Shown piece by piece: positions 7,179 through 48,321 of a stretch of DNA of 64,000 bases (positions are counted from its first letter, which is position 1; each line of letters begins with the position of its first letter). The stretch lies in assembly GCA_026386805.1 (NCBI GenBank), contig JAPLMX010000171.1, forward strand, positions 8,176-72,175, given 5' to 3'. The DNA is from Phycisphaerae bacterium (GTDB lineage Bacteria > Planctomycetota > Phycisphaerae > Sedimentisphaerales > Anaerobacaceae). A program made the position numbers and the translations under genes. The notes under the pieces are model-generated. The model saw only the letters and a list, made by a program, of their open reading frames with translations, was not told where the DNA came from and did no database searches.

Positions 7179-7312
7179 GTCATCCTGAGCGACAGCGAAG
7201 GATCTGGGCGGAGCACAATGACAGGTGTGGGTTCGGGTCCCCATCGCGACCAGTCGCGATGGGGGTCCCGTTCCATGTCGTCGCCCAGATGCTTCGCTTC
7301 GCTCAGCATGAC
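7179..7312. repeat. Palindromic REP/MITE-like element (family G), copy 1
   Basis: Arms gtcatcctgagcgacagcgaaggatctgggc and gcccagatgcttcgcttcgctcagcatgac are imperfect reverse complements. They enclose the perfect hairpin ccccatcgcgaccagtcgcgatgggg (7239-7264). The same arm sequences recur at 60411-60517. Confidence 0.8.
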
Positions 7313-9008: not shown

Positions 9009-9113
9009 GAAAGTGTGAAGTGCGATCTTTGATTGTTGATTTGGGAGAGTCACCTCTTGCTTCAAACTTCAAACATCCAACTTCTCACTTCAAAAGTCTC
9101 ACTTCACACTTTC
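9009..9113. repeat. Low-complexity hairpin element (family D), copy 1, between convergent wzi and fliS
   Basis: Perfect 14-bp termini gaaagtgtgaagtg and cacttcacactttc. The interior is built of gattgttgat and cttcaaacttcaaac words. Roughly 85-90% identical by eye to 11299-11396. Confidence 0.8.
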
Positions 9114-9471: not shown

Positions 9472-9500
9472 GATCTGGTCCCCGGCACAGAATGAACCGC

Positions 9501-9580
9501 TGGAATACTGGAATGTTGGAAATGGGGGAACGCCTTTCGAGCTTCCTATTCTTCCATCATTCCATCATTCCAATGCTCCA
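9501..9580. repeat. Low-complexity imperfect hairpin (tggaatactggaatgttggaaatggg / cttccatcattccatcattccaatgctcca) between fliC stop and fliS start
   Basis: The two arms are approximate reverse complements made of ggaat(g/a) words. Placement suits a partial terminator or processing site after fliC. Confidence 0.55.
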
Positions 9581-9674
9581 TGATCCATCATCAATTATCA
9601 ATGGGGAGATGACTGACGGACGGGGCCGCAGCCATCTCCCCCTAATGAGCGTCAAACGTGTTGTCCCGCGCTGA

Positions 9675-11048
9675 CTATCCTCTCAGCAGCGTCAGTGCCA
9701 TCTGCGGAATCGAGTTGGCCTGGGCCAGCATCGCCGTACCGGCCTGTGCCAGCACCTGGTTGCGGGTCAGGACCGCCATTTCCGTCGCCACATCGACATC
9801 CGAAATCCGCGACTCGGCGGTACTTAGGTTCTCCGACTGAATGCCCAGCACCTCACCGGTGCTCTCCAGACGGTTGATCTTGTACCCGAACGCCGCACGG
9901 GCCGTGTCCTTGAGACCGATGGCGGCCGCCACGGCAGCTATCGCATCCTGGGCGGCCGACGCCGTGAGGAGGTTGATACCCGTACCGGCCTGCTCGCCCA
10001 TGGAACCTTCGGTGACGGGGGTGACGAGATCGTCGGGATCGATGTCCTCGGTCACGTCGAAAGCAAGGACGGCACCGGAGTCGTTCACGATACCGAGCGT
10101 TGACTCCCCCGTCGCGGCGCTGAGCATCGATGTCATCGTCACGGTGTCCGCACCCGCCAGCCTCGAGTTGAGCTGGAGGTAAAACTGGTTGGCCTCTCTG
10201 CCATTGGTTCCATCCCCTGCGACCACTTCGGCCATTTGGTAGTTTTTGGACACGCCGTCCGCGTCATTGTCCTGGTTCTGGCTTGCCACGTTGATGAGGT
10301 CGACAACCTCTTGCAGCGAGTAAGCCTGTGCGGCCCCGAGCGCGCCAGTATCCAACTCGATGGAAATGGCGTCCTCTAGCACGCCACCATCGGCGAATTG
10401 AATCGTGATCGTCTGAGTCCCGGCGGCGGCACTATCCTCTACGCTCACCCAGTCCTCGGTACTCGCATTGGACACTCCATAGCCGGATATGAGCTGGAAG
10501 CCGGCGCTGCCGGTCGTAATGCCCAGACCGCTCTGCGTCATGTCGCTCCGCGCGATCGAAATCTCGTCGTTCGTGCCGGTTCCAAAGCGGATCTTCACAT
10601 CGGCCGCGGCATCGACCGTGTCCGGGTCCGTCTTGTTGAGCATGGCAATGCCATTGAACTTGGTGGACTTCGAGATACGGTCCACTTCGGCGGCCATTTC
10701 CGAGAACTCGTTGTTCATAATGACGCGCTGGGCGGCGGAATAGGACCCCGTCGAGGCCTGCTCCGCCAACTGCTTCATGCGGACGAGGGCGTTGTCGATC
10801 GTGGCCATTGTTCCTTCCATCGTCTGGAGCATGCTGATGCCGTCCTGCGTATTCCGGACGCCCTGATCGAGGACGGAGATATCCGCCCGCATCAACTCGC
10901 GAACGGCCATGCCGGCCGCGTCATCTTTGGCGCTGTTGATCCGCAGACCGGACGACAGCCTTTCCACCGACTGGGCCAAAGCATCGTAGCTCTTGCCCAG
11001 ATAGCGGGCGGCGTTCGCGGCCATCATATTGTTCTTGATTGCTAACAT
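9675..11048 (-). CDS. fliC: Flagellin
   Basis: 457 aa. N-terminus MLAIKNNMMAANAARYLGKSYDALAQSVERLSSGLRINSAKDDAAGMAV and C-terminus LTRNQVLAQAGTAMLAQANSIPQMALTLLRG are the conserved flagellin D0/D1 segments. The centre is variable and T/S/A/D-rich. Confidence 0.97.
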   Translation of the reverse strand: MLAIKNNMMAANAARYLGKSYDALAQSVERLSSGLRINSAKDDAAGMAVRELMRADISVLDQGVRNTQDGISMLQTMEGTMATIDNALVRMKQLAEQASTGSYSAAQRVIMNNEFSEMAAEVDRISKSTKFNGIAMLNKTDPDTVDAAADVKIRFGTGTNDEISIARSDMTQSGLGITTGSAGFQLISGYGVSNASTEDWVSVEDSAAAGTQTITIQFADGGVLEDAISIELDTGALGAAQAYSLQEVVDLINVASQNQDNDADGVSKNYQMAEVVAGDGTNGREANQFYLQLNSRLAGADTVTMTSMLSAATGESTLGIVNDSGAVLAFDVTEDIDPDDLVTPVTEGSMGEQAGTGINLLTASAAQDAIAAVAAAIGLKDTARAAFGYKINRLESTGEVLGIQSENLSTAESRISDVDVATEMAVLTRNQVLAQAGTAMLAQANSIPQMALTLLRG

Positions 11049-11298: not shown

Positions 11299-11396
11299 GA
11301 AAGTGTGAAGTCTGATCGTTGATTGTTGATTGGGGAGAGTGGCCTCTTACTTCAGACTTCAAACATCCGACTTCCAACTTCAGAAGTCTCACTTTC
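11299..11396. repeat. Low-complexity hairpin element (family D), copy 2
   Basis: gaaagtgtgaagtctgatcgttgattgttgattgggg...cttcagaagtctcactttc, collinear with 9009-9113. Confidence 0.8.
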
Positions 11397-11447
11397 CCCG
11401 TCAAACTCTGATGCGGCTCCGCATCGATGACCGATACTATCTTATTG

Positions 11448-11628
11448 CTGGAGTTTTGCAAAATGGAGATTAGGCCTATATTCTTCCAGGAAATCTTATT
11501 CTTCGATTTCCTGGAAGAATCGGCGTCAGTTCTTCTCTGGCCCGTCGTTACGGTTTGGTAAGGAAAAATCGAGAAAAGAGATTTTTCCTTCCCAAAGTAG
11601 GCCTAATCTCCATTTTGCAGAACTCCAG
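11448..11628 (+). mobile_element. 181-bp MITE-like element, copy A1 (about 30-bp terminal inverted repeats, two internal hairpins)
   Basis: TIRs are ctggagttttgcaaaatggagattaggcct and aggcctaatctccattttgcagaactccag. Internal hairpins are attcttccaggaaatc/gatttcctggaagaat and ggaaaaatc/gatttttcc. About 95% identical (about 8 differences by hand) to the reverse complement of 14682-14862. No coding capacity. Confidence 0.85.
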
Positions 11629-11657
11629 GTCTTACAAATCACGGGACATAACCGCCT

Positions 11658-12695
11658 ATGGCGACCGACAAGACTCTGCTCGTTTTCAATTGTCACGAGC
11701 CCTGGATTCACCAGCTCGGCATCCTGGGCTACCGGCTCGACATCATTGTAAACTTGCGGGGCAAGTACAATAAAGGATGGGATGAGCGGATGCGGCCGCT
11801 GCCGGCCCACGCCCGCCTCGTCACCCTGCCGGAGGCGCTTGCGTCGCCGACGGAGTACTACTGCATCGTCGCGCACAATACCACGGACCTGCTCGACGTC
11901 CGATTCCGCCCGGAGCCACGGATGCTCGTGCTGCACCACACTCTGGAGGGCCGGCTGCAGGAGGAGCGATCCACCGTCGATCCGCAGAAGATGAGGGACA
12001 TGCTCCGCACCTATATCGACCTCGTGGGGGGGCACGTCGTCGCCACGTCCATGTTCAAAGGCGAGTCCTGGGGATTCACGGAGGATATCGTGCCGTTCGG
12101 CATCGATGCCGACGACTATCCGCTCTGTTCGGGCGAGCAGCCGAGAGGTCTGCGGATTTGCAACTTCATCAACAACCGCCGGCAGATCCTGCTCTGGGAT
12201 TTCCATGAGCGCGCGTTCGAGGGCGTCCCCGTGACGCTCGTCGGCCACAACCCGGACCTGCCCGGCGTCGAAGCCGCGAAGAACTGGGATCACCTCAAGA
12301 CAATTCTCCAGTCCCACCGGTTCTACATCCACACGGCGGACCCGCGCTTCGAGGCGGGCTACAACATGGCCATGGCAGAGGCGATGGCCGCCGGTCTGCC
12401 GGTCCTGGGGAACTGTCACCCGACCTCTCCGATCCGCCACGGCATCACCGGGTTCCTCAGCGACGACCCCGCGCAGTTGCAGCGCTATGCGCGAATGCTC
12501 CTGGCGGACAAGGAGCTCGCACTCCTGATGGGACGGCGAGCGCGACAAACGGTCGTGGAGCGATTCTCGCTCACACGATTCCGGCACGGATTTCTGCGTT
12601 CGATTGAGATTGCCCGGGGGAAATGGTATACGCGGAAAATCGATCCGGCGTCCCTGCGCGCGGAGTCGTTTCCGGTAGGCGCCGGGGCCCAATGA
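11658..12695 (+). CDS. Glycosyltransferase, GT4/Glycos_transf_1 type (candidate flagellin-modification enzyme)
   Basis: 345 aa. C-terminal EAGYNMAMAEAMAAGLPVLGNCHPTSPIRHGITGFLSDDPAQLQRYARMLLADKELALLMGRRARQTVVERFS fits the GT1 E-X7-E region. Lies next to fliC. Confidence 0.8.
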   Translation: MATDKTLLVFNCHEPWIHQLGILGYRLDIIVNLRGKYNKGWDERMRPLPAHARLVTLPEALASPTEYYCIVAHNTTDLLDVRFRPEPRMLVLHHTLEGRLQEERSTVDPQKMRDMLRTYIDLVGGHVVATSMFKGESWGFTEDIVPFGIDADDYPLCSGEQPRGLRICNFINNRRQILLWDFHERAFEGVPVTLVGHNPDLPGVEAAKNWDHLKTILQSHRFYIHTADPRFEAGYNMAMAEAMAAGLPVLGNCHPTSPIRHGITGFLSDDPAQLQRYARMLLADKELALLMGRRARQTVVERFSLTRFRHGFLRSIEIARGKWYTRKIDPASLRAESFPVGAGAQ

Positions 12696-12980: not shown

Positions 12981-14663
12981 CTATAGAAGCATGTCGATCC
13001 GGCCGGGCGGGGCACTACTCTGCCGGTCGGCACCGGTCGGCTCCTCGGAAGGCGCAGTGTACCTCGTGGTCTCCTGCGACCACGCCGTGTGGGCGGCAGG
13101 GAAAGGCTCGCGGTGCTGTCCCGAGCCATGCTGCCCCGCCCCCACGTCCTGCTGCGGCAGCCCCCGGCCGAGATCCGGCCCAGCCGAGTCGCTGCTCGTC
13201 ACGTCGAATCGGCGAATGGGCACCCCCGCCTCCTGGAGGCCCCGAACCACGTCCGGAAGGGCCTGCTCGATCTCGCGGCGGACGTCGCTTCTGCCGACCT
13301 CGATCGTGCCTTCCAGGTGATCGCCTTGTTCCCGAAGCCGGACAGCGACCGTCCCCAGCTCCGGCGGCTGCAACCGAATGACGATTTGCCTGTCACCCGG
13401 GGTCGTAGAGGCCCGCACCGAGTCCAGGATCTGCTCGCCCACACTCCGGATGGGGTTCGCCGTCGCGCCGACCTCGGCGACCTTGGGCGTTGGAGCATCG
13501 AGAGAAAGACGCGGCGTAGCGACAACGGGCTGACCGGCTAAAGAAGCCGGCGGCTCCGCCGGCACGGTCGCGCCCTCCTGACGCTGCGAGGACGGAGTCT
13601 TCTTTTCCCCCGGTCCATCGACTTCCAACGGCCGGTTCCGGGCCGCCGGCGTGTCCTCACGTCTTGGGGTCGTCCGCTGCTGGCTTTCCGTGCGAGACGC
13701 CGCGGTCCCCCGCTGGGGTCCTTCGGGGGCCTGGACAGCCGCCTCCCGGCTCGCCAAGGGGGCCTTTGGGGAGGCCTGATCCGGGTTCGCGATTGTGACA
13801 GATGGCCGATCCGCCGGCACAGGCGCCGGTGTGAAAGGTGCTTTCGAGCCTGCGTTCGTCGGCGCCTCGTTGCCTCCCGCCCGCGTGCGTTGTGGCTTCT
13901 CGGCGGATTCTCCGGCCGTGACCCCCTGTCCCTTGTGCTCCGCCTTCCCCGGCTCGGTTTCGGTGCTCGCCGTCGCGTTCTCTTTGCCCTCTTTCTGCGG
14001 CGGTTGCAAAACCTGGCGACCCATGCCGGCCGGCACAGGCTGTGACACCTCGGCCGTTGCCTGGTCTGGGCGGGCTGCCGCCCTATTGCCGGTCGCGTGG
14101 GCGGCAACGTCCGATAGTCCTTCCTTGGGGGACGGTGTATTCCTGGAAGGTTGAGGGTGGACGGCACACCAACACCCGACCGGTCCGATCAGGGTCTCTT
14201 GCGGCGAAGACTCTTGCGCGACTGGATTCGGCGATTGCTTCTGCTCCCCGCCCTTCGTCCCTTGTTCGCCATCCTCTGTTATCTTGCGTTCTGCGTTCTT
14301 GGGGAATGACTTCGACGGGGAATCGGCGTTCACGATGTGACTCTTGGGCTGCACAAGCAGCACTGCCGGCTGGTCCGATAAACCAGTGCCTATCGCCGCC
14401 TGGCCACTGTCGGGCACAGACCGATTGCTGCGTTTGTGCGTTTCCGGGGTGCCTTGCTGAGATTCCGGCCCCACGTGGACGGTGGCCTTGTCTGCGGCCC
14501 CTTTATCGGGCTTTGTCTTCTCTTGGAGGCCAGCCAGCGCGGGGACGTCGGCAAAACGCTGCTGCGGCTTTGCCGTCGTTCGCCGCATCGGCCCTTTTTC
14601 ACGCACGCCATCACTGGATGACAACACGGCACTCGGATTTGCGGGAGCATTCATGTCCACCAT
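12981..14663 (-). CDS. fliK: Flagellar hook-length control protein FliK
   Basis: 560 aa. Long P/T/S/A/Q-rich N-terminal region, then the C-terminal Flg_hook pattern DRQIVIRLQPPELGTVAVRLREQGDHLEGTIEVGRSDVRREIEQALPDVVRGLQEAGV. Confidence 0.85.
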   Translation of the reverse strand: MVDMNAPANPSAVLSSSDGVREKGPMRRTTAKPQQRFADVPALAGLQEKTKPDKGAADKATVHVGPESQQGTPETHKRSNRSVPDSGQAAIGTGLSDQPAVLLVQPKSHIVNADSPSKSFPKNAERKITEDGEQGTKGGEQKQSPNPVAQESSPQETLIGPVGCWCAVHPQPSRNTPSPKEGLSDVAAHATGNRAAARPDQATAEVSQPVPAGMGRQVLQPPQKEGKENATASTETEPGKAEHKGQGVTAGESAEKPQRTRAGGNEAPTNAGSKAPFTPAPVPADRPSVTIANPDQASPKAPLASREAAVQAPEGPQRGTAASRTESQQRTTPRREDTPAARNRPLEVDGPGEKKTPSSQRQEGATVPAEPPASLAGQPVVATPRLSLDAPTPKVAEVGATANPIRSVGEQILDSVRASTTPGDRQIVIRLQPPELGTVAVRLREQGDHLEGTIEVGRSDVRREIEQALPDVVRGLQEAGVPIRRFDVTSSDSAGPDLGRGLPQQDVGAGQHGSGQHREPFPAAHTAWSQETTRYTAPSEEPTGADRQSSAPPGRIDMLL

Positions 14664-14681
14664 CCTTATAGACTATGATCA

Positions 14682-14862
14682 CTGGAGTTCTGCAAAATGG
14701 AGATTAGGCCTACTTTGGGAAGGAAAGATCTCTTTTCTCGATTTTCCTTTCCCAAACCGTGACGACGGGCCAGAGAAGAACTTACGCCGATTCTTCCAGG
14801 AGATCGAAGAATAAGATTTCCTGGAAGAATATAGGCCTAATCTCCATTTTGCAGAACTCCAG
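14682..14862 (-). mobile_element. 181-bp MITE-like element, copy A2 (reverse complement of A1), in the fliK leader
   Basis: Same TIRs and internal hairpins as 11448-11628. Lies between the sigma-54 promoter at 14873-14888 and the fliK start (14663). Confidence 0.85.
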
Positions 14863-14872
14863 TGATAACAGC

Positions 14873-14888
14873 AGCAATCCACGTGCCA
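14873..14888 (-). promoter_or_regulatory. Sigma-54 promoter (-24/-12) for fliK
   Basis: The minus strand reads TGGCACGTGGATTGCT, a perfect TGGCAC-N5-TTGC with correct GG-N10-GC spacing. Confidence 0.75.
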
Positions 14889-15107: not shown

Positions 15108-15203
15108 AATTGATGAAGGATGATTGATGATCGATGATTGACGAAGGAGTCCGGACTTCTGCTTCAATCATCAATCTTCAATTATCAATCGTCAATAATC
15201 AAT
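15108..15203. repeat. Low-complexity hairpin element (family E: attgatga / tcatcaat words)
   Basis: aattgatgaaggatgattgatgatcgatgattgacg ... cttcaatcatcaatcttcaattatcaatcgtcaataatcaat. Ends 5 nt before the flgB sigma-54 promoter. Confidence 0.75.
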
Positions 15204-18034: not shown

Positions 18035-18105
18035 CATGGGCCTCTCGCCCATGAAGACACGGGCAGGATGAGTTCCCCAACGTGATCGATCACGTTGGGG
18101 GTCCC

Positions 18106-19141: not shown

Positions 19142-19744
19142 ATGTCCCCGATGCAAATCATCAACCTGATGCAGCCGATTGCCACCGCGTGTGTCGTGGA
19201 CCCGGAGCAATTGCGGATGGCGGATGGCGGATGGCGGATGGAGCCCGCACCCACGAATCCACAATCCGAAATCCGCAATCCGCAATCGGAGGATCTGACC
19301 CGGGAGTTGCAGGAACAGAGGAACAAGCTGGCCCGGCTTCTGGAAACCGTCAACGGTGTCGCCGCCGGCCTCCACAGGTCTTACGAACAGATGCTGGCGA
19401 GCAACCACGGGGAGATCGCCAAGCTCGCCGTCGAGATCGCCAGAAAGATCCTGATGTACAAGGCCGGTAAGGGCGACTACGAAATCCAGGCCATCGTGGA
19501 GGAAGCCCTCCAGCAGGCCCCGACACGTCAGAACGTCGTCGTCCGCCTGCATCCGGAGGACCTGCCGCGCTGCCAGCAGCTTCAGCGGGAGAATCCGCAA
19601 AGCCCGCTGGCGGAGCTGGAATTCACGGCCGACGGGAGCCTCGGCCGCGGCGAGTGCCTCGTCCAGACCCCCAAGGGGATCGTCCAGTCATTCATCGAAG
19701 AGCACCTCGAACGCATCAGCGGGGCGCTGCAGAAGGTCCAATAG
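19142..19744 (+). CDS. fliH: Flagellar assembly protein FliH
   Basis: EIAKLAVEIARKILMYK...IVEEALQQAPTRQNVVVRLHPEDL...GECLVQTPKGIVQSFIEEHLERI. The first ~55 codons cover a heptamer-repeat hairpin (19211-19288). An in-frame TTG at 19307 is an alternative start. Confidence 0.8.
   Translation: MSPMQIINLMQPIATACVVDPEQLRMADGGWRMEPAPTNPQSEIRNPQSEDLTRELQEQRNKLARLLETVNGVAAGLHRSYEQMLASNHGEIAKLAVEIARKILMYKAGKGDYEIQAIVEEALQQAPTRQNVVVRLHPEDLPRCQQLQRENPQSPLAELEFTADGSLGRGECLVQTPKGIVQSFIEEHLERISGALQKVQ
19211..19288. repeat. Heptamer-repeat hairpin (family C: gcggatg x4 / aatccgc words) inside or just before fliH
   Basis: ttgcggatggcggatggcggatggcggatgg ... ccacaatccgaaatccgcaatccgcaatcg. Translated in frame as MADGGWRMEPAPTNPQSEIRNPQSE. 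Confidence 0.8.
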
Positions 19745-21113: not shown

Positions 21114-21180
21114 TTGGAGTTCTGCAAAATGGAGATTAGGCCTATATTCTTCAAGGAAATCTTGTTCTTCGATTTCGTGG
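21114..21180 (+). mobile_element. Partial (left-half) copy A3 of the MITE-like element, between fliI and fliJ
   Basis: ttggagttctgcaaaatggagattaggcctatattcttcaaggaaatcttgttcttcgatttc matches the first ~65 nt of copy A1. It ends 7 nt before the fliJ ATG. Confidence 0.8.
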
Positions 21181-21187
21181 ATGATGG

Positions 21188-21637
21188 ATGAAACGATTCG
21201 CATGGCGTCTGCAAAAAGTGTTGGATATCAAGAGCAAGCAAGAGCAGCTCAAGCGAAACGAGCTGTTCCGGATCGCCGAGCAGTTGGCGGTCCAACGCGA
21301 CGAATTGCTCATGCGGCGGAGAATCTTGCAGGACCTCGTGACCGAGATCCAGGGACAGGGATCGCTGACGCGGTTGAACGCACAGGAGTTCTTCCTCCGG
21401 CACGCCGCAGCCGACGACGAGCAGATGGGTCGGCTGCGGGAGGAAATCGCCGCCCTGGAAGTCCGGCACCAAAAGAAAACGGCCGAGGTGCTGGCCGTCC
21501 GACGGTTCAAAGAAGGTCTGGAGAGGCTACGGGAGCAGGCCAAGGAACAGTATATCCGGGAGCAGGAAAAGATGGAGCAGAAGGAATCGGATGAGCGAAC
21601 GGCCATCGCCTTCGCCCACAACGAAAGCAGCGTGTAG
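21188..21637 (+). CDS. fliJ: Flagellar export protein FliJ
   Basis: 149-aa coiled-coil protein, MKRFAWRLQKVLDIKSKQEQLKRNELFRIAEQL. Position directly after fliI. Confidence 0.8.
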   Translation: MKRFAWRLQKVLDIKSKQEQLKRNELFRIAEQLAVQRDELLMRRRILQDLVTEIQGQGSLTRLNAQEFFLRHAAADDEQMGRLREEIAALEVRHQKKTAEVLAVRRFKEGLERLREQAKEQYIREQEKMEQKESDERTAIAFAHNESSV

Positions 21638-21662: not shown

Positions 21663-21742
21663 CCCTGCCTTCGCAGGGGGAGGGGACCCCAAACGCGACC
21701 TGTCGCGTTTGGGAACCCGAACCTAGCCCCGCGGAGGCGGGG
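21663..21742. repeat. Cluster of three GC-rich hairpins (family F REP-like) between fliJ and the motE-like gene
   Basis: cccctgccttcgcagggg, then ccccaaacgcgacctgtcgcgtttggg (21687-21713), then ccccgcggaggcgggg. The central palindrome recurs at 53091, 53618, 25513 and 55694. Confidence 0.75.
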
Positions 21743-22496: not shown

Positions 22497-23273
22497 ATGG
22501 ATATCGCAACAGCCTTAGGCGTGATCTGTGGCTTCGTCGTGATTTTCGGGACCATCACGTTCGAGAGTCACGGGAAGATGGCCATCTTCTTCAACATTCC
22601 GGCCATCGCCATCGTCGTGGGCGGCACGATCTGTGCGACCATGATCCATTTCTCCATGAAGCAATTCCTCGGGGTCCTGTCGGTGGTCAAGAAGACTCTC
22701 CTGACCAAGATCACGGCCCCGCAAGAGGTAATCCAGAGAATGGTCAATTACTCCGCCGTCAACCGGCGGGATGGGGCCCTGGCCCTGGAGCAGGAGATCG
22801 GGAAGATCAAGGACCCCTTCCTGTCCAAGGGCCTGCAGATGCTCGTGGACGGGGCGGACGAGCATGCTATCCGCGACCTGCTCGGCCTGGAGATCCAGTA
22901 CATGGAAGAGCGGCACTCCATGGGCAAGAAGATCCTGGATTTCATGGGCGCCTCCGCGCCCTCGTTCGCCATGGTCGGCACGCTGATCGGTCTGATCTCC
23001 ATGCTCAGCAACATGGAGAGTCCCGATGAGATCGGCGCCGGCATGGCCACCGCCCTGGTCTGCACCTTCTATGGCGCCCTGGTCGCCAACCTCGTCTTCA
23101 TCCCCATGGGGGGCAAGCTGGGGCAATACTCCAAAGCGGAGAAGATCTCGATGGAAATGGTCGTCGAGGGCGTCTGCTGCATCGCCAAGGGTGACAACCC
23201 AACGGCCGTGGGCGAGAAGATGCAGGTCTTCATCTCCACCAAACACCGCGAGGCGGTGAAGGCGCAGGTATGA
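22497..23273 (+). CDS. motA: Flagellar stator protein MotA
   Basis: 258 aa, four TM segments. C-terminal GAGMATALVCTFYGALVANLVFIPMGGKL is typical of the MotA/TolQ/ExbB channel family. Confidence 0.9.
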   Translation: MDIATALGVICGFVVIFGTITFESHGKMAIFFNIPAIAIVVGGTICATMIHFSMKQFLGVLSVVKKTLLTKITAPQEVIQRMVNYSAVNRRDGALALEQEIGKIKDPFLSKGLQMLVDGADEHAIRDLLGLEIQYMEERHSMGKKILDFMGASAPSFAMVGTLIGLISMLSNMESPDEIGAGMATALVCTFYGALVANLVFIPMGGKLGQYSKAEKISMEMVVEGVCCIAKGDNPTAVGEKMQVFISTKHREAVKAQV

Positions 23274-23276
23274 AGA

Positions 23277-23431
23277 AAATCCGAAATCCGAAATCCGAAA
23301 TCCGAAACAAATGCGAATGTCCAAAACCCCCAATGCAAAACGGCGGCGCCGGCCGGCGCCAGCGTTTCGGTCATTCGTGCCTTTGGATTTTGGATTCGTT
23401 TCGGATTTCGGATTTCGGATTTCGGATTCGT
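23277..23431. repeat. Low-complexity hairpin element (family B: aatccgaaatccgaaa / tttcggatttcggatt arms), copy 1
   Basis: Arms of tandem aatccga units flank the core aaacggcggcgccggccggcgccagcgtttcggtcattcgtgcctttgg. Related cores occur at 25588-25738 and 39290-39530. Confidence 0.85.
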
Positions 23432-25069: not shown

Positions 25070-25588
25070 ATGGGCAACCAAGGCAAGAAGATCGGGTTTC
25101 TGTGCCTGCTGCTGGTCGTCAGCGGCGGGTGGATCGCGCTGGCCTCGCGTCAAGGCGGGGACGTGGGCGGACAGAGCGCCGATCCGATCCGTCGTCCGTC
25201 GTCCTTCTTGAGCGATCCCAATCTGCCTTCTTCCCCAGGCATCCACCTGGGCAATGGCGAGCTGTTCCTGCGGATGATGCTCTCCGTCGGCCTTGTCATC
25301 GCCCTGGGCGCTGCCGCCCTGTACGTGTCCAAGAAGGTGCTGCCCGGAGTGGCCCAGCGGGGCGGCAAGGAGATCCACGTTCTCGAAACCGCCTACCTCG
25401 GCCCCCGCAAGGCGCTCCACCTGGTGGAGGTCGGCAACCAGCGGCTGCTCGTCGCCAGCACGAACGACAGCATCACGATGCTGGCCCCCGTGAACGAGGC
25501 GTGGCTCGGGGCCCCCAACGCAGAAGGCCGCGTTGGGGAACCCCTCGAGGCGGCCCAGCCGGAGCTTGACCAGGCGGTGAAACCATGA
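25070..25588 (+). CDS. fliO: Flagellar biosynthesis protein FliO (start 24995 or 25070)
   Basis: TM LRMMLSVGLVIALGAAALYV followed by KEIHVLETAYLGPRKALHLVEVGNQRLLVASTNDSITMLAPV, the FliO pattern. Position is immediately before fliP, with an ATGA stop/start overlap. Confidence 0.6.
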   Translation: MGNQGKKIGFLCLLLVVSGGWIALASRQGGDVGGQSADPIRRPSSFLSDPNLPSSPGIHLGNGELFLRMMLSVGLVIALGAAALYVSKKVLPGVAQRGGKEIHVLETAYLGPRKALHLVEVGNQRLLVASTNDSITMLAPVNEAWLGAPNAEGRVGEPLEAAQPELDQAVKP

Positions 25589-26547
25589 AATCCGAATATC
25601 GAAATTCGAAATCCGAAACAAGCACGAAGGTTCAAACTTCCAAATTCGAAAAGGGCCCCAGGCTGGCGCCAGCGTTTTGGTCCTTCCGGTTTGGGATTTT
25701 GGATTTGTTTCGGATTTCGAATTTCGGATTTCGAATTTTCCTCCTGGTGCTCCTGCTATCGCCGACCGTCTTCGGCCAAGCCACGCGTCCCCTCACGCCG
25801 CCGACGATGCCCCAGATCGTCCCGACGAACAAGCCCGCGCCAACCCCCGTCACCGTCCCGACGATCGGCGAGCTGATGAACGTCCTGGAGAAGGCGACCG
25901 CGCAGCAGCCGGAGAGCAAGGACTGGTCGACGTCGATCAAGCTCGTGATCATCTTCGCCGGGCTGGCCCTTCTGCCCAGCCTGCTGGTCATGATGACCTC
26001 CTTCACCCGCATCGTCATCGTGCTGGCCTTTGTCCGGCGTGCCCTGACGACGCAGAGCATCCCGCCGACGATCGCCGTCATCGGCCTGGCGCTGTTCCTG
26101 ACCCTGTACACGATGGCCCCCACGTACGCGAGGGTGAACGCGGAGGCCATCGGGCCGTATCTGGCGGACGAGATCAACCTGAGCGTCGCCGTCCAAAGAG
26201 GCGGCGGGTGCCTCAAGGAGTTCATGCTCCGCCAGAGCCGCAAGGCCGATCTGGCACTGTTCGTCCAGATGGCCAAAGTGCCCCCGCCAGCCAGTCCCAG
26301 GGACATCGGCATGCACATCGTCGTGCCGGCCTTCATCATCAGCGAGTTCCGCACGGCATTCGAGATCGGATGCCTGCTGTTCATTCCATTTCTGCTGATC
26401 GACATGGTGATCGCCAGTGTGCTGCTCAGCGCGGGCATGATCATGCTGCCGCCGGCGATGATCTCGCTGCCGTTCAAGCTGATTCTCTTTATCCTCGTGG
26501 ACGGCTGGGGACTGCTGGCGAAGAGCTTGAGCCTGGGATTCCGATGA
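25585..26547 (+). CDS. fliP: Flagellar export apparatus protein FliP (true start uncertain)
   Basis: LVIIFAGLALLPSLLVMMTSFTRIVIVLAFVRRALTTQSIPP and GCLLFIPFLLIDMVIASVLLSAGMIMLPP. The first ~50 codons of the ATG-25585 ORF are the translation of repeat B2. An in-frame TTG near 25701 gives MFRISNFGFRIFLLVLLLSPTVFG. Confidence 0.9.
   Translation: MKSEYRNSKSETSTKVQTSKFEKGPRLAPAFWSFRFGILDLFRISNFGFRIFLLVLLLSPTVFGQATRPLTPPTMPQIVPTNKPAPTPVTVPTIGELMNVLEKATAQQPESKDWSTSIKLVIIFAGLALLPSLLVMMTSFTRIVIVLAFVRRALTTQSIPPTIAVIGLALFLTLYTMAPTYARVNAEAIGPYLADEINLSVAVQRGGGCLKEFMLRQSRKADLALFVQMAKVPPPASPRDIGMHIVVPAFIISEFRTAFEIGCLLFIPFLLIDMVIASVLLSAGMIMLPPAMISLPFKLILFILVDGWGLLAKSLSLGFR
25588..25738. repeat. Low-complexity hairpin element (family B), copy 2, overlapping the annotated 5' end of fliP
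   Basis: aaatccgaatatcgaaattcgaaatccgaaac ... ggcgccagcgttttggtccttccggtttggg ... gatttgtttcggatttcgaatttcggatttcgaatt. Confidence 0.8.
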
Positions 26548-27695: not shown

Positions 27696-27789
27696 ATTGA
27701 TGACTGATGAGGGATGATTGATGATTGTCAGAAACGAAAAGTCCGTGCTCCATAACCAATAATCAATAATCCATCATCCATAATCAATA
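27696..27789. repeat. Low-complexity hairpin element (family E) between fliR and flhB
   Basis: attgatgactgatgagggatgattgatgattg ... caataatcaataatccatcatccataatcaat. Confidence 0.7.
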
Positions 27790-28943: not shown

Positions 28944-31370
28944 TCATTTGCTGGTGCTTGTGGTCGTGACCCCCAAGGCGGCCATCTGGTTCTGGATCAG
29001 GGTCAGGGTCTTTTCCAGCCGGGCGAACCGCGCCGTCAAAGCCTTCTGCTTCTGCGTCAGGCGATCCTGCTCGACCTTGATCTGATCCTGAAGATGCTGG
29101 ATCTGATCGTCGATGCCCTTGCGGTCCACCGTAAGAACGCCGGTCGTCGCATCCAGCATCCGATCCAGGGCGTCCGACATCGCCCCGGCGAAGCCCTGCT
29201 GGACTCGAACCGTGGCCGTGAAGGTCCCGTCCTGGCTCCGATCGATGCTCAACTGGAGGCCGTTCTCCGGATAGAGCGGATCGCCGTTCTCGCTGAACGT
29301 GCTGTTCCCGAGAATCGTATTGCCCTGGTTCGTGGCATCGCGGTACGTGGTCTCGCCTTCGGTTTTGATCTTGGCGCTCGTGATAATCCCGCCGGAGATG
29401 GTCACCTGCACGTTGTACGTGCCGGCCGTGGTGTTGTCGCCCGAGGCGCCGTAGAACTTGATGGTATTGCTGTCGGAGTTGCCGGTTTTATCGGCCCCGA
29501 TGATGGCGAGCACACCCGCATAGTCCTCGGCAATGGCCTGGTCGAAGGTGCCGGCGGTCAGACTCAGCTTCCCGTCCTTGTCGAGATCGAGCCCGATCTG
29601 GCCAGGTATGACGAAGCTATCCAGCGCGGTGGCGAAGCCGCTGGCCTGCTGGATCAACAACATGTGCAGGTCATCGGCGGCGTCGGACACCACCGAATCG
29701 CCCATGAGGACGCCGGCGGTCTTGCTGGCAACGTCGTAGCCGGTCTTCTCCTCGTACAGGGTGATCGCCGCGTTGTACGCCGACACGATCGAGTTGACTT
29801 TTGTTTTGATCGACGTGGTATCCCGCGTCAAGTCGAGCTGCACGCTCCCGGTGTCGTGCAGGTGCAACGTCACGCCGGTAACAACGTTGTCGATCGTGTT
29901 CGAGCTGCGGGTGATCCATTCGTCCGCGCCCAAGGGGTACCCATCCACCTTGATCTGGGAATCCTGGGCGGACTGGGTCTTGGTGAAGTCGGCGGCCGCA
30001 AAGCCGGCCAGATCCGCCGTGATCGTCTCACCTTGCACGGACTCACTGATGGCAGGAATGTCCAAAGTGGTGGAACCCGACCCCGGGTTGTAGGTCAGGC
30101 TCAACTCCATCTGGCTCGTGCCGCTCGTGTGGTCGGTCAGCCGGATTTTGCCATTCTCCAGAGTGGCCGTCGCGGTGCCGCCAAACGCGTCGTTGATTTT
30201 CTGAATGAGATCGCTGAGTTTCGTACTCCCCGTGACGGAGAGACTCTGACTGGCCGCCGTCCCATCGTGCTTCTTGCCGCTGATGGTGATGGACTCGTCC
30301 CCCATGAGCGTGCCGAACGTGTCGTCAAACTCGTTCAGGTCGACGATCGCATCGGTCAACTCGCCATTCGCACCGCCTGCGGTAGCGGTAAAGGACGAGG
30401 CGGCCTGCCAGACTTCCCGGTTGCTCGAAGGGATGGCAGGAGTATCGAACGTGGTGGAGCCCGTCCCGGCGTTGTAGGTCAGGCTCAATTCCATCTGGCT
30501 GGGGCCGCAGGTGGCGTCGGTGAGCCGGATTTGGCCGTTGACCAGGGTGGCCGTGGCGGTGCCGTTAAAGGCGGTGTTGATCTCCTGAATGAGTTGACTG
30601 AGCTTGGTGGTCGAGTAGAGCATGAGGTTCTGACTGACGGCTGTCCCATCATGCGTCTTGCCGCTGATGGTGATGTACTCACCTCCTACGAGGGTGCCGT
30701 CGAGCTGGCTCAGACCAGAGATCGCATCCGTCAGTTCCGCGTTCGCAGTGCCGGTCGTGAAGGACGAGGCCGCCTCCGAGACTTCCGTGTCGTTCGCATT
30801 GACCGAAATCGCGTAGTCCGAGCCGGCGTCGTTGCCGTTGAGCATGAGATGATACGAGTTGTTGTAGAACAGCAGGTTGGCCGTCACGCCCGGATTGTTC
30901 GCATCGTTGTTGATCAGGCCGACCAGGTCTTCCAGCGTGGTATCGGCCGTGGTCGTGATCGTTGTCTCCTGGTGATTATACGAATAGATGAACGTCCCCG
31001 CGCCGACGGGGTCCTGGGCGTACTCCTGGCCGGCCGTATGAACCCACCGCTCCGGACTGGCGAGCTGATTGATGACGATGGCGTGGTTGCCTTCGAAAGC
31101 GCTGTTCGAGACCTCCGCCGTCAGAATGTCGGTGTCGCTGGACGCCGCCGTGAAGGCCCGCAACGTGCTCGCGTCAGAAATCGCGGCCGTGGCGGTTTTG
31201 AGCGACTGCAGCTTGGTTTGCAGATCGTTGAGGGCAGTCTCCCGAGTGCTCAACGTCTGTTGGCGCGTCTGGTACCGTTTGATCGTTCCTTGCTCCGCCG
31301 CGATGAGCTGGCTGACCAACGTCTGCGTGTCGATGCCTGAGAACAGGCCTCCCAGTTGTATGCTTGCCAT
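28944..31370 (-). CDS. fliD: Flagellar filament cap protein FliD (enlarged, with internal tandem duplication)
   Basis: 808 aa. N-terminus MASIQLGGLFSGIDTQTLVSQLIAAEQGTIKRYQTRQQTL and a C-terminal coiled coil DQIQHLQDQIKVEQDRLTQKQKALTARFARLEKTLTLIQNQM. Confidence 0.93.
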   Translation of the reverse strand: MASIQLGGLFSGIDTQTLVSQLIAAEQGTIKRYQTRQQTLSTRETALNDLQTKLQSLKTATAAISDASTLRAFTAASSDTDILTAEVSNSAFEGNHAIVINQLASPERWVHTAGQEYAQDPVGAGTFIYSYNHQETTITTTADTTLEDLVGLINNDANNPGVTANLLFYNNSYHLMLNGNDAGSDYAISVNANDTEVSEAASSFTTGTANAELTDAISGLSQLDGTLVGGEYITISGKTHDGTAVSQNLMLYSTTKLSQLIQEINTAFNGTATATLVNGQIRLTDATCGPSQMELSLTYNAGTGSTTFDTPAIPSSNREVWQAASSFTATAGGANGELTDAIVDLNEFDDTFGTLMGDESITISGKKHDGTAASQSLSVTGSTKLSDLIQKINDAFGGTATATLENGKIRLTDHTSGTSQMELSLTYNPGSGSTTLDIPAISESVQGETITADLAGFAAADFTKTQSAQDSQIKVDGYPLGADEWITRSSNTIDNVVTGVTLHLHDTGSVQLDLTRDTTSIKTKVNSIVSAYNAAITLYEEKTGYDVASKTAGVLMGDSVVSDAADDLHMLLIQQASGFATALDSFVIPGQIGLDLDKDGKLSLTAGTFDQAIAEDYAGVLAIIGADKTGNSDSNTIKFYGASGDNTTAGTYNVQVTISGGIITSAKIKTEGETTYRDATNQGNTILGNSTFSENGDPLYPENGLQLSIDRSQDGTFTATVRVQQGFAGAMSDALDRMLDATTGVLTVDRKGIDDQIQHLQDQIKVEQDRLTQKQKALTARFARLEKTLTLIQNQMAALGVTTTSTSK

Positions 31371-37235: not shown

Positions 37236-37799
37236 TCAGAATTGCATGCTCATCAACGTGGCGTTGATCTCGTGCTTGGCCGCCCCGGTCGAGCCGTAGG
37301 TCGCCCCCGGCCCTCCCTTCGCCCCGAAGAAGACATGCAGGAGAGACCGATTGAACCGAATGCAGTCCCGGACGAGCAGCACGGTCAGGGTATGTTCCCG
37401 TTTCAGTTGTGCGGTGAGAGCCCGCAGCCGTACCTGTCGATCCGCCAGGGCGACGCCCGCGTCATGACCGGCCAACACACCTGCCAGCGTAGAGAGCGTC
37501 AGACCGCTTGCCGCGCACCCCAGGTCCGCCGCCAAGTCCTGGCGGAGTTGCTCCCGTTTCCGCTCGTTCGCCTGGTACGCTTCCGCTTGCCCGCGGACTT
37601 CGTCCAGGAGTTTTTGCAGAGCCGCGTCCTCTCTCTTGACCAGCAGAGATCGGAGGGCATTCAAGCGCGACAGCGTGCTCTCGATGTGCCGGATATCCTC
37701 GTCAAGCACCTCCAGCAGCGCCGCAATTCTGACTTGGGTTCCCAAACGCAATGCCGCGCGTTTAGCGTCGCCTTCCATCGCCGCCGACATCATGATCAC
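37236..37799 (-). CDS. flgN: FlgN-family flagellar chaperone
   Basis: 187-aa helical protein directly upstream of flgK. LLEVLDEDIRHIESTLSRLNALRSLLVKREDAALQKLLDEV fits the FlgN pattern. Confidence 0.65.
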   Translation of the reverse strand: MIMMSAAMEGDAKRAALRLGTQVRIAALLEVLDEDIRHIESTLSRLNALRSLLVKREDAALQKLLDEVRGQAEAYQANERKREQLRQDLAADLGCAASGLTLSTLAGVLAGHDAGVALADRQVRLRALTAQLKREHTLTVLLVRDCIRFNRSLLHVFFGAKGGPGATYGSTGAAKHEINATLMSMQF

Positions 37800-38170
37800 A
37801 ACTCCTCGTCTAAGACATCAGCAGGATTCGGGGTCCCGTCCATCTGCTGAAGATGTTGGTAGATATCCTTCCACAAACCCAAGCCGCCCTTGTCGGCGGC
37901 GTCCCGGGCCAGGTAGAGCCAGAACAACCCCTGCACTTGCTGCGCGGTTCCCTCTTCCTCGGGGTCCAAACTCCCGATCGTCGTCTGCACCTCCGCGAAG
38001 AGCCGGGTCAGCAGGATGGATTCGAAATCCTTGGCGACCTGCTGCTTCTTCTGGTCCGTGCGGTCCACGGAATTCGATTGCAGCTTGATGATTGCGGACT
38101 GCGGATTCGCAAGGCGACTCAAATCCGCCATCTGCCATCCGCAATCCGAAATTGGTTTTATTCCATCCAT
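37796..38170 (-). CDS. Rod-binding protein (FlgJ N-terminal-domain-only type)
   Basis: 124 aa with KKQQVAKDFESILLTRLFAEV, the Rod-binding signature. No muramidase domain. The N-terminal ~25 codons overlap a family C repeat. Confidence 0.75.
   Translation of the reverse strand: MDGIKPISDCGWQMADLSRLANPQSAIIKLQSNSVDRTDQKKQQVAKDFESILLTRLFAEVQTTIGSLDPEEEGTAQQVQGLFWLYLARDAADKGGLGLWKDIYQHLQQMDGTPNPADVLDEEL
38089..38152. repeat. Heptamer-repeat hairpin (family C) inside the 5' end of the rod-binding protein gene
   Basis: gattgcggactgcggattcg ... aatccgccatctgccatccgcaatccgaaatt. Confidence 0.7.
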
Positions 38171-39289: not shown

Positions 39290-39530
39290 AAATTCGACAA
39301 CTCCGCCGCAGGCGGACGCCGGTTGCCCCGTGTCGTTCGGGAAATCCAAAATTCGACAACTCCGCCGCAGGCGGATGCCGGTTGCCGCGTGTCGTTCGCG
39401 AAATCCGAAACAAATTCAAAACCCAAAGCACGAATGACCGAAATGCGCTGCCCGGCTCTGCCCGTTTTGAATTTTGGATTTTGGACATTCGAATTTGTTT
39501 CGGATTTCGGATTTCGGATTTCGGATTTGC
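39290..39530. repeat. Low-complexity hairpin element (family B), copy 3, with an internal ~58-bp tandem duplication
   Basis: Two tandem units aaattcgacaactccgccgcaggcgga(c/t)gccggttgcc(c/g)cgtgtcgttcg(g/c)gaaatcc at 39290-39347 and 39348-39405. These are followed by a core related to B1 in reverse complement and by tttcggatttcggatttcggatttcggatt. Confidence 0.8.
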
Positions 39531-39540
39531 TTTCACATTC

Positions 39541-46878: not shown

Positions 46879-48321
<1,443 letters not shown>

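What the first reader, a model, noticed from the sequence alone, without database searches (positions are those of the whole stretch)
11448..11628. 181-bp MITE-like element found three times, always just upstream of a flagellar start codon and always in the same sense
Seen: copies lie at 11448-11628, 14682-14862 (reverse complement, ~95% identical) and a left-half copy at 21114-21180. Relative to the downstream gene (glycosyltransferase, fliK, fliJ) all three have the same orientation. They end 29, 18 and 7 nt before the start codon. Each full copy folds on paper into a long stem (about 30-nt TIRs) with two internal hairpins. The fliK copy starts about where the sigma-54 promoter at 14873-14888 should initiate, so the whole element would be the fliK leader. 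Inference: either a MITE with strong insertion-site or orientation bias, or an element co-opted as a structured 5' UTR (RNase III target or translational control) within the flagellar regulon.
Basis: partly seen in the sequence, partly recalled or inferred. Interest (0 to 1): 0.65.

Follow-up and report, generated by a model that had tools for sequence, protein, structure and literature searches.

The report
Planctomycete MITE inserted upstream of flagellar genes
The 181-base repeat is a small non-coding jumping element (a MITE) that is common in sediment planctomycetes and tends to sit just upstream of start codons of all kinds of genes, so its link to flagellar genes here is incidental, although the cut-down copy in front of fliJ may now help start translation of that gene.

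Summary
Full copies lie at 11448-11628 (+) and 14682-14862 (-), 95% identical, and a left-half copy at 21114-21184. Each full copy has 31-nt terminal inverted repeats and two internal hairpins. The copies end 29, 18 and 3-7 nt before the glycosyltransferase, fliK and fliJ start codons.

It is a MITE. More than 120 metagenome contigs and two Planctomycetota MAGs carry it. The target duplication is 7 bp and AT-rich (TTAnTAA). Related genomes have empty sites at the glycosyltransferase and fliK positions. No parent transposase was found.

Across the family, orientation relative to the nearest gene is random (23 vs 20). Position is not random: 36 of 48 copies lie within 45 nt upstream of a start codon, against 24.9 expected. 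Downstream genes are diverse. The window itself is almost entirely flagellar genes, so "always flagellar" carries no weight.

Only the window's own subfamily shows a same-sense bias (8 vs 0), and this is unexplained.

The fliK copy starts at the predicted +1 of a perfect sigma-54 promoter, so it should be the mRNA leader; any effect on expression is inferred.

New here: the terminal repeat carries GGAG-N9-ATG. In the truncated fliJ copy this opens a 20-codon ORF whose TGA overlaps the fliJ ATG. Three other loci show the same layout.

The parts
11448..11628 (+). MITE copy 1, full length (181 nt). Terminal repeats at 11448-11478 and 11598-11628, hairpin A at 11480-11520, hairpin B at 11554-11596. 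It ends 29 nt before the glycosyltransferase ATG.
   Evidence: Relative L127 has an empty site here, so this is an insertion.
14682..14862 (-). MITE copy 2, full length, reverse complement of copy 1. Terminal repeats at 14682-14712 and 14832-14862. On the + strand, hairpin B is at 14714-14756 and hairpin A at 14790-14830. It lies 18 nt upstream of the fliK ATG.
   Evidence: L127 and L128 have empty sites. The orthologous copy in L125 is 174/181 identical.
21114..21184 (+). Truncated MITE copy 3: the left terminal repeat (21114-21144) plus a degenerate hairpin A (21146-21184). The right half is missing. It abuts the fliJ start codon.
   Evidence: It is absent from L125, which has different sequence at this junction.
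21129..21191 (+). 20-codon ORF, MEIRPIFFKEILFFDFVDDG*. It starts at the ATG inside the terminal repeat, with GGAG at 21116-21119 nine nt upstream. Its TGA stop (21189-21191) overlaps the fliJ ATG (21188-21190), giving ATGA.
   Evidence: Read directly from the sequence. L074, L116 and L122 have the same layout, and L079 has an in-frame fusion.
14873..14888 (-). Sigma-54 promoter TGGCACGTGGATTGCT for fliK. With GG at -25/-24 and GC at -13/-12, the predicted +1 is the first base of the MITE (C at 14862).
   Evidence: The promoter is conserved in L125, L127 and L128. The +1 position comes from the standard sigma-54 spacing rule and was not measured.
12981..14663 (-). fliK, flagellar hook-length control protein, 560 aa.
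   Evidence: Pfam PF02120; 59 homologues.
11658..12695 (+). Group 1 glycosyltransferase, 345 aa.
   Evidence: Pfam PF13692 and PF00534. The start codon is conserved in L127.
21188..21637 (+). fliJ, 149 aa.
   Evidence: Pfam PF02050. The start MKRFAWRLQ is conserved in L125.

Best explanation
[quoted passage not shown] These are non-coding DNA of about 175-181 nt that must be moved in trans by a transposase not yet identified.

Shown:
- Each element has terminal inverted repeats of about 31 nt and two internal palindromes.
- It duplicates 7 bp of an AT-rich target with consensus TTAnTAA.
- It is found only between genes.
- It sits within about 10-45 nt upstream of a start codon far more often than even placement within the same intergenic gaps would give.
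- In this lineage it inserted at least four separate times in the flagellar cluster: upstream of the glycosyltransferase (window only); upstream of fliK (shared with a relative about 91% identical, absent from two relatives about 80-83% identical); upstream of fliS (relative only); and between fliI and fliJ (window only, now truncated).

Inferred:
- The start-codon proximity most likely comes from the preference for AT-rich target sites in a 62% G+C genome, together with loss of more harmful insertions. It is unlikely to reflect a flagellar function.
- The fliK copy starts at the predicted +1 of the sigma-54 promoter, so the whole element should be the 5' leader of fliK mRNA and fold into a 31-bp duplex with two hairpins. 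By analogy with Correia elements, this duplex is a likely RNase III substrate or a 5' stabiliser. The size and direction of any effect are unknown.
- The truncated fliJ copy cannot form that duplex. Its terminal repeat supplies GGAG-N9-ATG, and the resulting 20-codon ORF ends in a TGA overlapping the fliJ ATG. This probably couples fliJ translation to the leader ORF.
For: Spread:
- A profile search found 133 elements, 127 with distinct flanks.
- In the source metagenome the repeat core is about 70-90 times deeper than the window's flanks.

Target duplication:
- 35 of 68 elements have at least 7/8 matching flanks, against 1.8 expected when flanks of different elements are paired.
- Per-position agreement delimits 7 duplicated bases. 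With a fixed register, 16 are perfect and 7 match 6/7, with consensus T-T-A-n-T-A-A.
- The duplicated zone is 68% A+T, against 44% for the loci as a whole.

Empty sites:
- L127 and L128 lack exactly the fliK element.
- L127 lacks exactly the glycosyltransferase element.
- L127 and the window lack the fliS element found in L125.

Not coding:
- ORFs from the repeat's ATG end inside the element in 49 of 69 (A to B) and 43 of 62 (B to A) cases.
- Loop lengths differ by 1-2 nt between subfamilies.

Placement and orientation:
- No element lies inside a called gene.
- A start codon lies within 45 nt in 36 of 48 cases against 24.9 expected (P = 1.5e-5). In intergenic gaps of at least 150 nt the figure is 12 of 21 against 4.2 (P about 1e-4). 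There is no such bias for 3' ends.
- Shine-Dalgarno motifs are visible between the element ends and the called starts.
- Orientation is 23 vs 20; in tandem gene contexts, 18 vs 16.

Leader ORF:
- 8 truncated terminal repeats point into a start codon, 3 point into a gene's 3' end, and none lies the other way round. Four have the ATGA overlap.
Against: - No autonomous partner carrying these terminal repeats was found. Mobilisation in trans is therefore inferred.
- The three window copies lack clean target duplications, matching about 5-6 of 7-8 against the empty-site sequence.
- The same-sense bias in the window's subfamily (0 vs 8) is not explained by a purely selfish model.
- The fliK copy is 96.1% identical between two genomes whose 4-fold sites are 87.8% identical. 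This could mean constraint, although the whole fliK-flgB intergenic region is conserved to the same degree.
- Gene calls and start codons for the metagenome loci come from my own codon-model caller, not from a standard tool.
- The loci were collected by exact match to a 19-mer, so conservation of the core is by construction, and the sample is incomplete.
- The leader-ORF pattern was noticed after the fact. Its chance estimate, about 0.002, is rough.
Confidence: 0.8

Rival explanations
1. The element has been co-opted as a strand-specific structured 5' UTR that controls flagellar genes at the RNA level, through RNase III processing or translational control. On this view its sense orientation is maintained by selection.
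For: - All four insertion events in this lineage are sense to the downstream gene.
- The window's subfamily shows 0 A-proximal vs 8 B-proximal.
- The fliK copy is retained in two genomes at 96.1% identity, against 87.8% at 4-fold sites, and includes one compensatory change, CCAGG/CCTGG to CAAGG/CCTTG.
- The fliK copy begins at the predicted +1 of the sigma-54 promoter.
- 18 of 47 predicted pairs show compensatory changes.
Against: - Family-wide orientation is random.
- L063, in the same subfamily, is antisense within the nuoD-nuoE operon.
- G-U and A-C cells are about equal: 51 vs 37 overall, and 17 vs 16 in the internal hairpins, by my tally. The stems are therefore equally good on both strands, as expected for DNA palindromes or inverted repeats.
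- Downstream genes are diverse, and the window is nearly all flagellar genes.
- The other differences between the window and L125 fliK copies weaken the stems.
- Rfam gives no match.
- The fliJ copy is not structured.
Confidence: 0.1
2. The element carries its own sigma-70-type promoter at the A end (TTTGCA-16 nt-TATATT, reading inward). This would drive the downstream gene when the element is inserted in sense, which would explain the subfamily's orientation bias.
For: - The scan found this site at 11455-11482 with 9 of 12 matches.
- The TATATT motif is at least 90% conserved across the family.
- The corresponding position at the B end reads TACTTT, a poorer match.
- The subfamily bias is 0 vs 8.
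Against: - One such site per 650 nt is close to the shuffle expectation of 0.6.
- No equivalent site was reported for the fliK copy.
- There is no orientation bias across the family, although all subfamilies keep TATATT.
- fliK already has a perfect sigma-54 promoter.
- Planctomycete promoter rules are not covered by the scan.
Confidence: 0.07
3. The repeat is a small protein-coding gene (MEIR...), as gene callers have annotated it in public data.
For: - 69 predicted proteins of 33-94 aa match the translation of the commonest subfamily.
- In about 30% of elements the ORF runs through the whole element on either strand, against 0-10% in the other frames.
Against: - The ORF ends inside the element in most copies, and at different places.
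- Loop indels shift the frame between subfamilies.
- In the window the ORFs are only 32 and 21 codons.
- No long homologue and no Pfam domain were found.
Confidence: 0.02

Closest known systems
Correia repeat-enclosed elements (CREE) of Neisseria
   Same: - Both are 100-160-nt MITEs with terminal inverted repeats of about 26-31 nt.
- Both are scattered in intergenic DNA near genes and are co-transcribed with them.
- The transcript folds into a long hairpin.
- For CREE, RNase III cleavage at the terminal repeats, promoter creation at the ends and IHF binding are reported (PMC2649163, PMC10969869).
   Different: - By my recollection, not checked in a paper here, CREE duplicates a TA dinucleotide; this family duplicates 7 bp (TTAnTAA).
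- There is no sequence similarity, and the phylum differs.
- RNase III cleavage, IHF binding and end promoters were not tested here.
- This family has two conserved internal palindromes and an SD-ATG in each terminal repeat.
ERIC/IRU, RUP and BOX-type small mobile repeats of enterobacteria and pneumococci
   Same: They are short, non-coding, palindromic, dispersed repeats that are transcribed with neighbouring genes. They can change mRNA stability; for example, ERIC unmasks an RNase E site (PMC10969869, PMC2229807).
   Different: The sequences, hosts and target rules all differ. None is reported with a 7-bp TTAnTAA duplication or with a start-codon-proximal bias of this kind.
ISL3-family and IS6/IS26-family insertion sequences, as possible parents
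   Same: - Some subfamilies have GG-type tips (GGCTTCTGCAAAATGG, GGAGTTCTGCAAAA).
- The IS6 repeat motifs are a GG tip plus cTGTt and caaa (PMC7986276), which is a loose resemblance.
- IS6-derived MITEs exist (PMC7986276).
   Different: - IS6 makes 8-bp duplications (PMC7986276), and so does ISL3 by my recollection and in the one ISL3 copy seen here; this family makes 7 bp.
- The one ISL3 element found has different repeats (GGCTCATCCGGTTTTTGCGTACTTTT). It is inserted into a MITE copy with its own 8-bp duplication, so it is a guest and not the parent.
Upstream leader ORFs coupled to a downstream gene by an ATGA stop/start overlap
   Same: The truncated fliJ copy and three other loci have a short ORF whose TGA overlaps the gene's ATG. 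This is the classic arrangement for termination-reinitiation coupling in bacterial operons (general knowledge).
   Different: Here a transposon end supplies the ribosome-binding site and start codon of the leader ORF. I found no report of this for a bacterial MITE in the papers I searched.

Membership tests
MITE (non-autonomous DNA transposon) | Short, with no conserved coding capacity | tested here: met
   Elements are 175-181 nt. ORFs from the terminal-repeat ATG end at varying internal positions, and indels shift the frame between subfamilies.
MITE (non-autonomous DNA transposon) | Terminal inverted repeats | tested here: met
   31 nt and 97-100% complementary in the window copies. The paired columns co-vary across 68 copies.
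MITE (non-autonomous DNA transposon) | Target-site duplication of fixed length | tested here: met
   7 bp with consensus TTAnTAA. 35 of 68 elements have at least 7/8 matching flanks against 1.8 expected. The window copies themselves keep only degenerate duplications.
MITE (non-autonomous DNA transposon) | Many dispersed copies, with presence/absence polymorphism between related genomes | tested here: met
   127 distinct sites. Relatives have empty sites at the fliK, glycosyltransferase and fliS positions.
MITE (non-autonomous DNA transposon) | A related autonomous element with the same terminal repeats | tested here: inconclusive
   None was found among 4 genome loci, 120 metagenome loci, viral contigs or protein searches. 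The collection scans were capped and required an exact core match.
ISL3-derived MITE | 8-bp target duplication and ISL3-type terminal repeats | tested here: not met
   The duplication is 7 bp. The ISL3 copy found in L002/L003 has unrelated repeats and an 8-bp duplication (TCATTTTC). It lies inside hairpin A of a MITE copy.
IS6/IS26-derived MITE | 8-bp target duplication; repeat with GG tip plus cTGTt and caaa motifs | tested here: not met
   The duplication is 7 bp. The resemblance to the repeat motifs is only loose (PMC7986276).
Correia-type element | TA target duplication; RNase III cleavage of the transcribed terminal-repeat stem | tested here: not met
   The target duplication is 7 bp, not TA. 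RNase III cleavage cannot be tested with these tools; only the 31-bp duplex is shown.
REP/BIME or IS200/IS605-type palindromic elements | Single 20-40-nt palindromes with a GTAG/CGTC head, no terminal inverted repeats and no target duplication | tested here: not met
   This element has terminal inverted repeats and a duplication. The feature list follows PMC3733652 and general knowledge.
Curated cis-regulatory RNA family (Rfam) | Match to a covariance model; strand-specific structure | tested here: not met
   No hit at gathering score. The permissive search gave only chance-level microRNA and snoRNA hits. G-U and A-C counts are symmetric between strands.

The most novel reading that the evidence does not exclude
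The terminal repeat of this MITE may be a portable translation-start module (GGAG-N9-ATG). On this reading, after the element lands in an operon junction, deletions that keep the upstream repeat are repeatedly fixed. Those deletions place the stop of the repeat's short ORF on the start codon of the next gene (ATGA). A transposon end would thus be turned into a translational-coupling leader.

The window's fliI-fliJ junction would be one such case: ATG at 21129, TGA at 21189-21191, over the fliJ ATG at 21188.
Probability: 0.3. Interest if true: 0.6.

Novelty: new member of a known kind. Interest (0 to 1): 0.4.

Why it matters
It explains a striking repeat in a flagellar cluster without invoking a flagellar regulator.

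It defines a MITE family that I did not find described for Planctomycetota. Its rules are clear: a 7-bp TTAnTAA duplication, intergenic placement and a position close to start codons. The family is abundant in sediment metagenomes. It breaks assemblies and is mis-annotated as 55-94-aa hypothetical proteins.

It also gives concrete test cases for how such insertions affect expression. One is a sigma-54 mRNA whose whole leader is the element. The other is a truncated copy that may drive fliJ translation through a coupled leader ORF.

Tried and rejected
- **ISL3 as parent.** I first read the ISL3 transposase next to the repeat in L002 as the parent element. The junctions in L002 and L003 show that it is an ISL3 copy inserted into the loop of hairpin A, with its own 26-nt repeats and an 8-bp duplication.
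- **8-bp duplication.** My first estimate was 8 bp. Per-position analysis corrected it to 7 bp.
- **Gene calling.** Greedy longest-ORF calling mis-called the glycosyltransferase and FliI. I replaced it with a self-trained codon model that reproduces the JGI calls on L125.
- **Exact look-up of the window's FliI:** not on record.
- **Viral contigs.** The 18 hits to a 17-mer of the core all lie within unrelated sequence and are chance matches.
- **Plasmid collection:** no match.
- **Protein search with the element's translation:** only short ORFs from other copies, no transposase. The window's own 32-aa ORF was too short to search.
- **RNA runs.** Three metatranscriptome or RNA runs hold element-bearing contigs from other loci, but none covers the window's fliK flanks. 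This gives no evidence on processing.
- **Terminators.** No intrinsic-terminator-like site was found in or next to the copies.
- **Sigma-28 promoter for the glycosyltransferase.** I could not identify one convincingly.
- **Gene between the two inverted copies in L105.** It is not a transposase.

Full report
**1. The observation**

The window holds two full copies of a 181-nt element, at 11448-11628 (+) and 14682-14862 (reverse complement). They are 95% alike over 187 nt (I1). A left-half copy at 21114-21184 is 93% alike over 70 nt (D18).

Each full copy has 31-nt terminal inverted repeats (I7 and I12). A 22-nt core of the repeat occurs five times in the window and never in 100 shuffles.

Pfam confirms the neighbouring genes:
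- flagellin, 9675-11048 (-)
- a GT1 glycosyltransferase, 11658-12695 (+)
- FliK, 12981-14663 (-)
- FliF, FliG, FliH and FliI
- FliJ, 21188-21637 (+)

The copies end 29, 18 and 3-7 nt before the glycosyltransferase, fliK and fliJ start codons. All three have the same internal order relative to the downstream gene (hairpin A, then hairpin B).

As RNA, both full copies fold into a long outer stem with two internal hairpins. The energies are -115.7 and -114.6 kcal/mol, with z about -12.5 to -13.

**2. It is a mobile element with many relatives**

The repeat core has exact matches in a Pirellulales MAG and a Sedimentisphaerales MAG.

A profile built from 36 oriented full copies found 133 elements in the loci held, 127 of them with distinct flanks. 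They fall into several subfamilies that differ in tips, loops and spacer.

In the metagenome that holds the window, the window's flanks have depth about 12-13.5. The repeat core sums to 850-1140. Many contigs end inside the element, as expected for a repeat that breaks assemblies.

Rfam has no match. I found no paper describing a MITE of Planctomycetota.

**3. Target-site duplication**

Pairing the two flanks of each element gives at least 7 of 8 matches in 35 of 68 elements. Pairing flanks of different elements gives 1.8 expected.

Per-position agreement shows that exactly seven bases are duplicated. They lie at positions 10-16 outside the core TGCAAAATGG. The element tips lie nine bases outside the core.

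The consensus of the duplicated heptamer is T-T-A-n-T-A-A. This zone is 68% A+T, against 44% for the loci overall. The window is 62% G+C.

**4. Empty sites**

I recovered three syntenic loci through FliK homologues: L125, about 91% identical to the window, and L127 and L128, about 80-83% identical.

- **fliK site.** L127 and L128 lack precisely window 14668-14863.
- **Glycosyltransferase site.** L127 lacks precisely window 11446-11633.
- **L125.** It shares the fliK copy (174 of 181 identical). It lacks the glycosyltransferase copy and the fliJ half copy. It has a further 138-nt copy 21 nt upstream of the fliS ATG.
- **fliS site.** L127 is empty there, and the window also lacks the element.

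That makes four separate insertion events in about 12 kb of the flagellar cluster in two related genomes. All four are sense to the downstream gene.

The window copies keep only degenerate duplications, matching about 5-6 of 7-8 against the empty-site sequence. Both targets contain TTATC.

**5. The parent is unknown**

In L002 and L003 the repeat is followed by an ISL3-type transposase. Its N-terminus reads MSTSLLYHGFGIRGY and its C-terminus KIRVLQRKAYGFRDTEFFKLKIYALHE; I recognise the family from memory. That IS has its own 26-nt repeats and an 8-bp duplication (TCATTTTC), and it lies in the loop of hairpin A of a MITE copy. It is a nested guest, not the parent.

IS6 makes 8-bp duplications (PMC7986276), and so does ISL3 by my recollection and in the one copy seen here. 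The 7-bp duplication of this family therefore fails that defining feature.

Scans of viral contigs and plasmids gave nothing. A protein search with the element's translation also found no transposase.

**6. Is the flagellar association meaningful?**

No. From about 9 kb to 63 kb the window is one flagellar supercluster. It includes:
- fliS, flagellin and fliK
- fliF, fliG, fliH, fliI and fliJ, then motA and motB
- fliO, fliP and fliR, then flhB and fliD
- flgK, flgI, flgH, flgA, flgG and flgE
- a sigma-54 activator, and flhA

Any intergenic insertion here is therefore next to a flagellar gene.

Across the family, 60 genes start within 60 nt of an element. They hit 90 Pfam families, including sulfatases, LytB, fumarase, penicillin-binding proteins, CarA and pseudopilins. 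FliS, from L125, is the only flagellar family among the 25 listed; the fliK and fliJ products of the window lineage were also in the set.

**7. Orientation**

I called genes with a self-trained codon model that reproduces the JGI calls on L125.

For the 75 full, non-edge elements, the start-proximal end is the A end in 23 cases and the B end in 20 (p = 0.76). In tandem gene contexts 18 are sense and 16 antisense.

The window's own subfamily (at least 87% identical, 15 members) behaves differently. It has 0 A-proximal and 8 B-proximal members (p = 0.008 before correction for about five testable subfamilies). One member, L063, lies antisense between nuoD and nuoE, with its A end 81 nt from nuoE. 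I cannot explain this bias.

**8. Position**

No element lies inside a called gene. A start codon lies within 45 nt of an element end in 36 of 48 informative cases. Even placement within the same intergenic gap would give 24.9 (P = 1.5e-5). For gaps of at least 150 nt the figures are 12 of 21 against 4.2 (P about 1e-4). There is no such excess for 3' ends, 4 of 15 against 2.5.

Typical Shine-Dalgarno motifs lie between the element and the called start, which supports the start calls.

The simplest cause is the AT-rich target in G+C-rich genomes together with purifying selection. This is an inference.

**9. Structure and covariation**

In an alignment of 68 copies, 18 of 47 predicted pairs show compensatory changes. 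These occur in the terminal repeats and in both hairpins.

G-U and A-C cells are about equal: 51 vs 37 overall, and 17 vs 16 in the internal hairpins (my tally). The stems are therefore equally good on both strands. This fits inverted repeats and DNA palindromes, such as transposase sites or copying from master elements, as well as it fits RNA. It gives no sign of a strand-specific RNA function.

Between the window and L125, 4-fold degenerate sites are 87.8% identical and the fliK element 96.1%. The whole fliK-flgB intergenic region is conserved to about the same degree. Of the seven differences, two form one compensatory pair. The others weaken the stems.

**10. The fliK leader**

TGGCACGTGGATTGCT, at 14888-14873 on the minus strand, is a perfect sigma-54 promoter. 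It is one of four in the window, which also encodes a sigma-54 activator. It is conserved in all three relatives.

With the usual numbering (GG at -25/-24, GC at -13/-12; established knowledge), +1 falls on the first base of the element. In the empty sites the leader would be only about 25-30 nt long.

The fliK mRNA of the window should therefore begin with the whole element, with its 5' end in a 31-bp duplex. Correia elements show that such stems can be cut by RNase III (PMC2649163, PMC10969869). That is the best-supported analogy, but nothing here measures it. The RNA runs held element-bearing contigs only from other loci.

**11. The fliJ copy and other truncated copies**

Each terminal repeat contains GGAG-N9-ATG reading inward.

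Among repeats that are not part of a full element:
- eight point into a start codon 4-46 nt beyond the core;
- three point into a gene's 3' end;
- none has the opposite arrangement, with the start codon on its outward side.

In four of the eight (the window, L074, L116 and L122), the short ORF that starts in the repeat (MEIR...) ends with a TGA overlapping the gene's ATG. In L079 the ORF is in frame with the gene.

In the window the details are as follows:
- GGAG is at 21116-21119 and the ATG at 21129.
- The ORF has 20 codons.
- Its TGA at 21189-21191 overlaps the fliJ ATG at 21188.
- This stretch has no unusual fold (z = +0.5).

A rough chance estimate for four such overlaps in eight cases is about 0.002. 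The pattern was noticed after the fact. I therefore propose, at moderate confidence, that the truncated copy acts as a leader ORF translationally coupled to fliJ.

**12. Verdict**

This is a real, mobile and newly characterised MITE family. It has an insertion-site bias but no family-wide orientation rule and no specific tie to flagella.

The "element of the flagellar regulon" reading is not supported. A function as a structured RNA is unproven.

The most novel reading that remains open is that a transposon end has been reused as a translation-start and coupling module.

Noticed in passing
L002 7690-7900 and L003 4140-4289 (Sedimentisphaerales MAG DATIKY01): An ISL3-family insertion sequence is inserted in the loop of hairpin A of a MITE copy. 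It has 26-nt repeats (GGCTCATCCGGTTTTTGCGTACTTTT) and an 8-bp duplication (TCATTTTC). Both contigs end inside the IS.
   Followed up: partly
window 7229-7271, 18065-18105, 21678-21720, 25503-25545, 37733-37777, 53082-53155, 53244-53286, 53609-53651, 54406-54448, 55684-55726; also L040 about 60-100: A family of G+C-rich palindromes of about 40 nt (GGGACCCCAAACGCGAC...GTCGCGTTTGGGAACCC) recurs in intergenic DNA. It looks REP-like. In L040 one copy sits inside a MITE copy.
   Followed up: no
window 19209-19290, 23271-23431, 25588-25743, 38077-38156, 39399-39532, 41100-41186, 58135-58197: Palindromes built from tandem heptamers, (AATCCGA)n facing (TCGGATT)n, occur between flagellar genes. Related heptamer repeats (TCAATCA, GGAATGA) occur at 9483-9602, 15164-15203 and 27742-27788. 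One of these fills the flagellin-fliS junction where L125 has a MITE.
   Followed up: no
window 9009-9104 and 11299-11394: A 96-nt direct repeat (88% identical) contains its own inverted repeat. One copy lies 54 nt upstream of MITE copy 1.
   Followed up: no
window 48149-48470 and 52640-52960: A direct repeat of about 320 nt (93% identical) occurs twice, 4.5 kb apart. It starts at the 3' end of the sigma-54 activator gene (46789-48321).
   Followed up: no
window 14888-14873 (-), 15209 (+), 46417 (-), 53016 (+): There are four perfect sigma-54 promoter matches (TGGCAC-N5-TTGCT). The first three lie upstream of fliK, of the neighbouring + strand genes that align with L125's rod genes, and of the - strand genes that include the hook gene. 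The flagellin gene instead has a conserved sigma-28-like site (TAAGTT...TCGATAAT).
   Followed up: partly
L125 12757-13320: In this close relative the region upstream of the glycosyltransferase is replaced by a run of palindromic repeats of about 37 nt (TTACA..GCC..ATGTAA type). The glycosyltransferase gene is called shorter there, 255 aa against 345 aa in the window.
   Followed up: no
proteins P0060-P0128: Public gene calls annotate copies of this MITE as hypothetical proteins of 33-94 aa. One is filed under a 'candidate division Kazan' MAG.
   Followed up: partly
L016/L078, L100, L123, L014, L070: Several MITE copies carry extra short inserts. These lie in the loop of hairpin B or in the central spacer.
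   Followed up: no
window 30048-30315 and 30432-30699: An internal direct repeat of about 270 nt (81-82% identical) lies within the 808-aa FliD gene.
   Followed up: no
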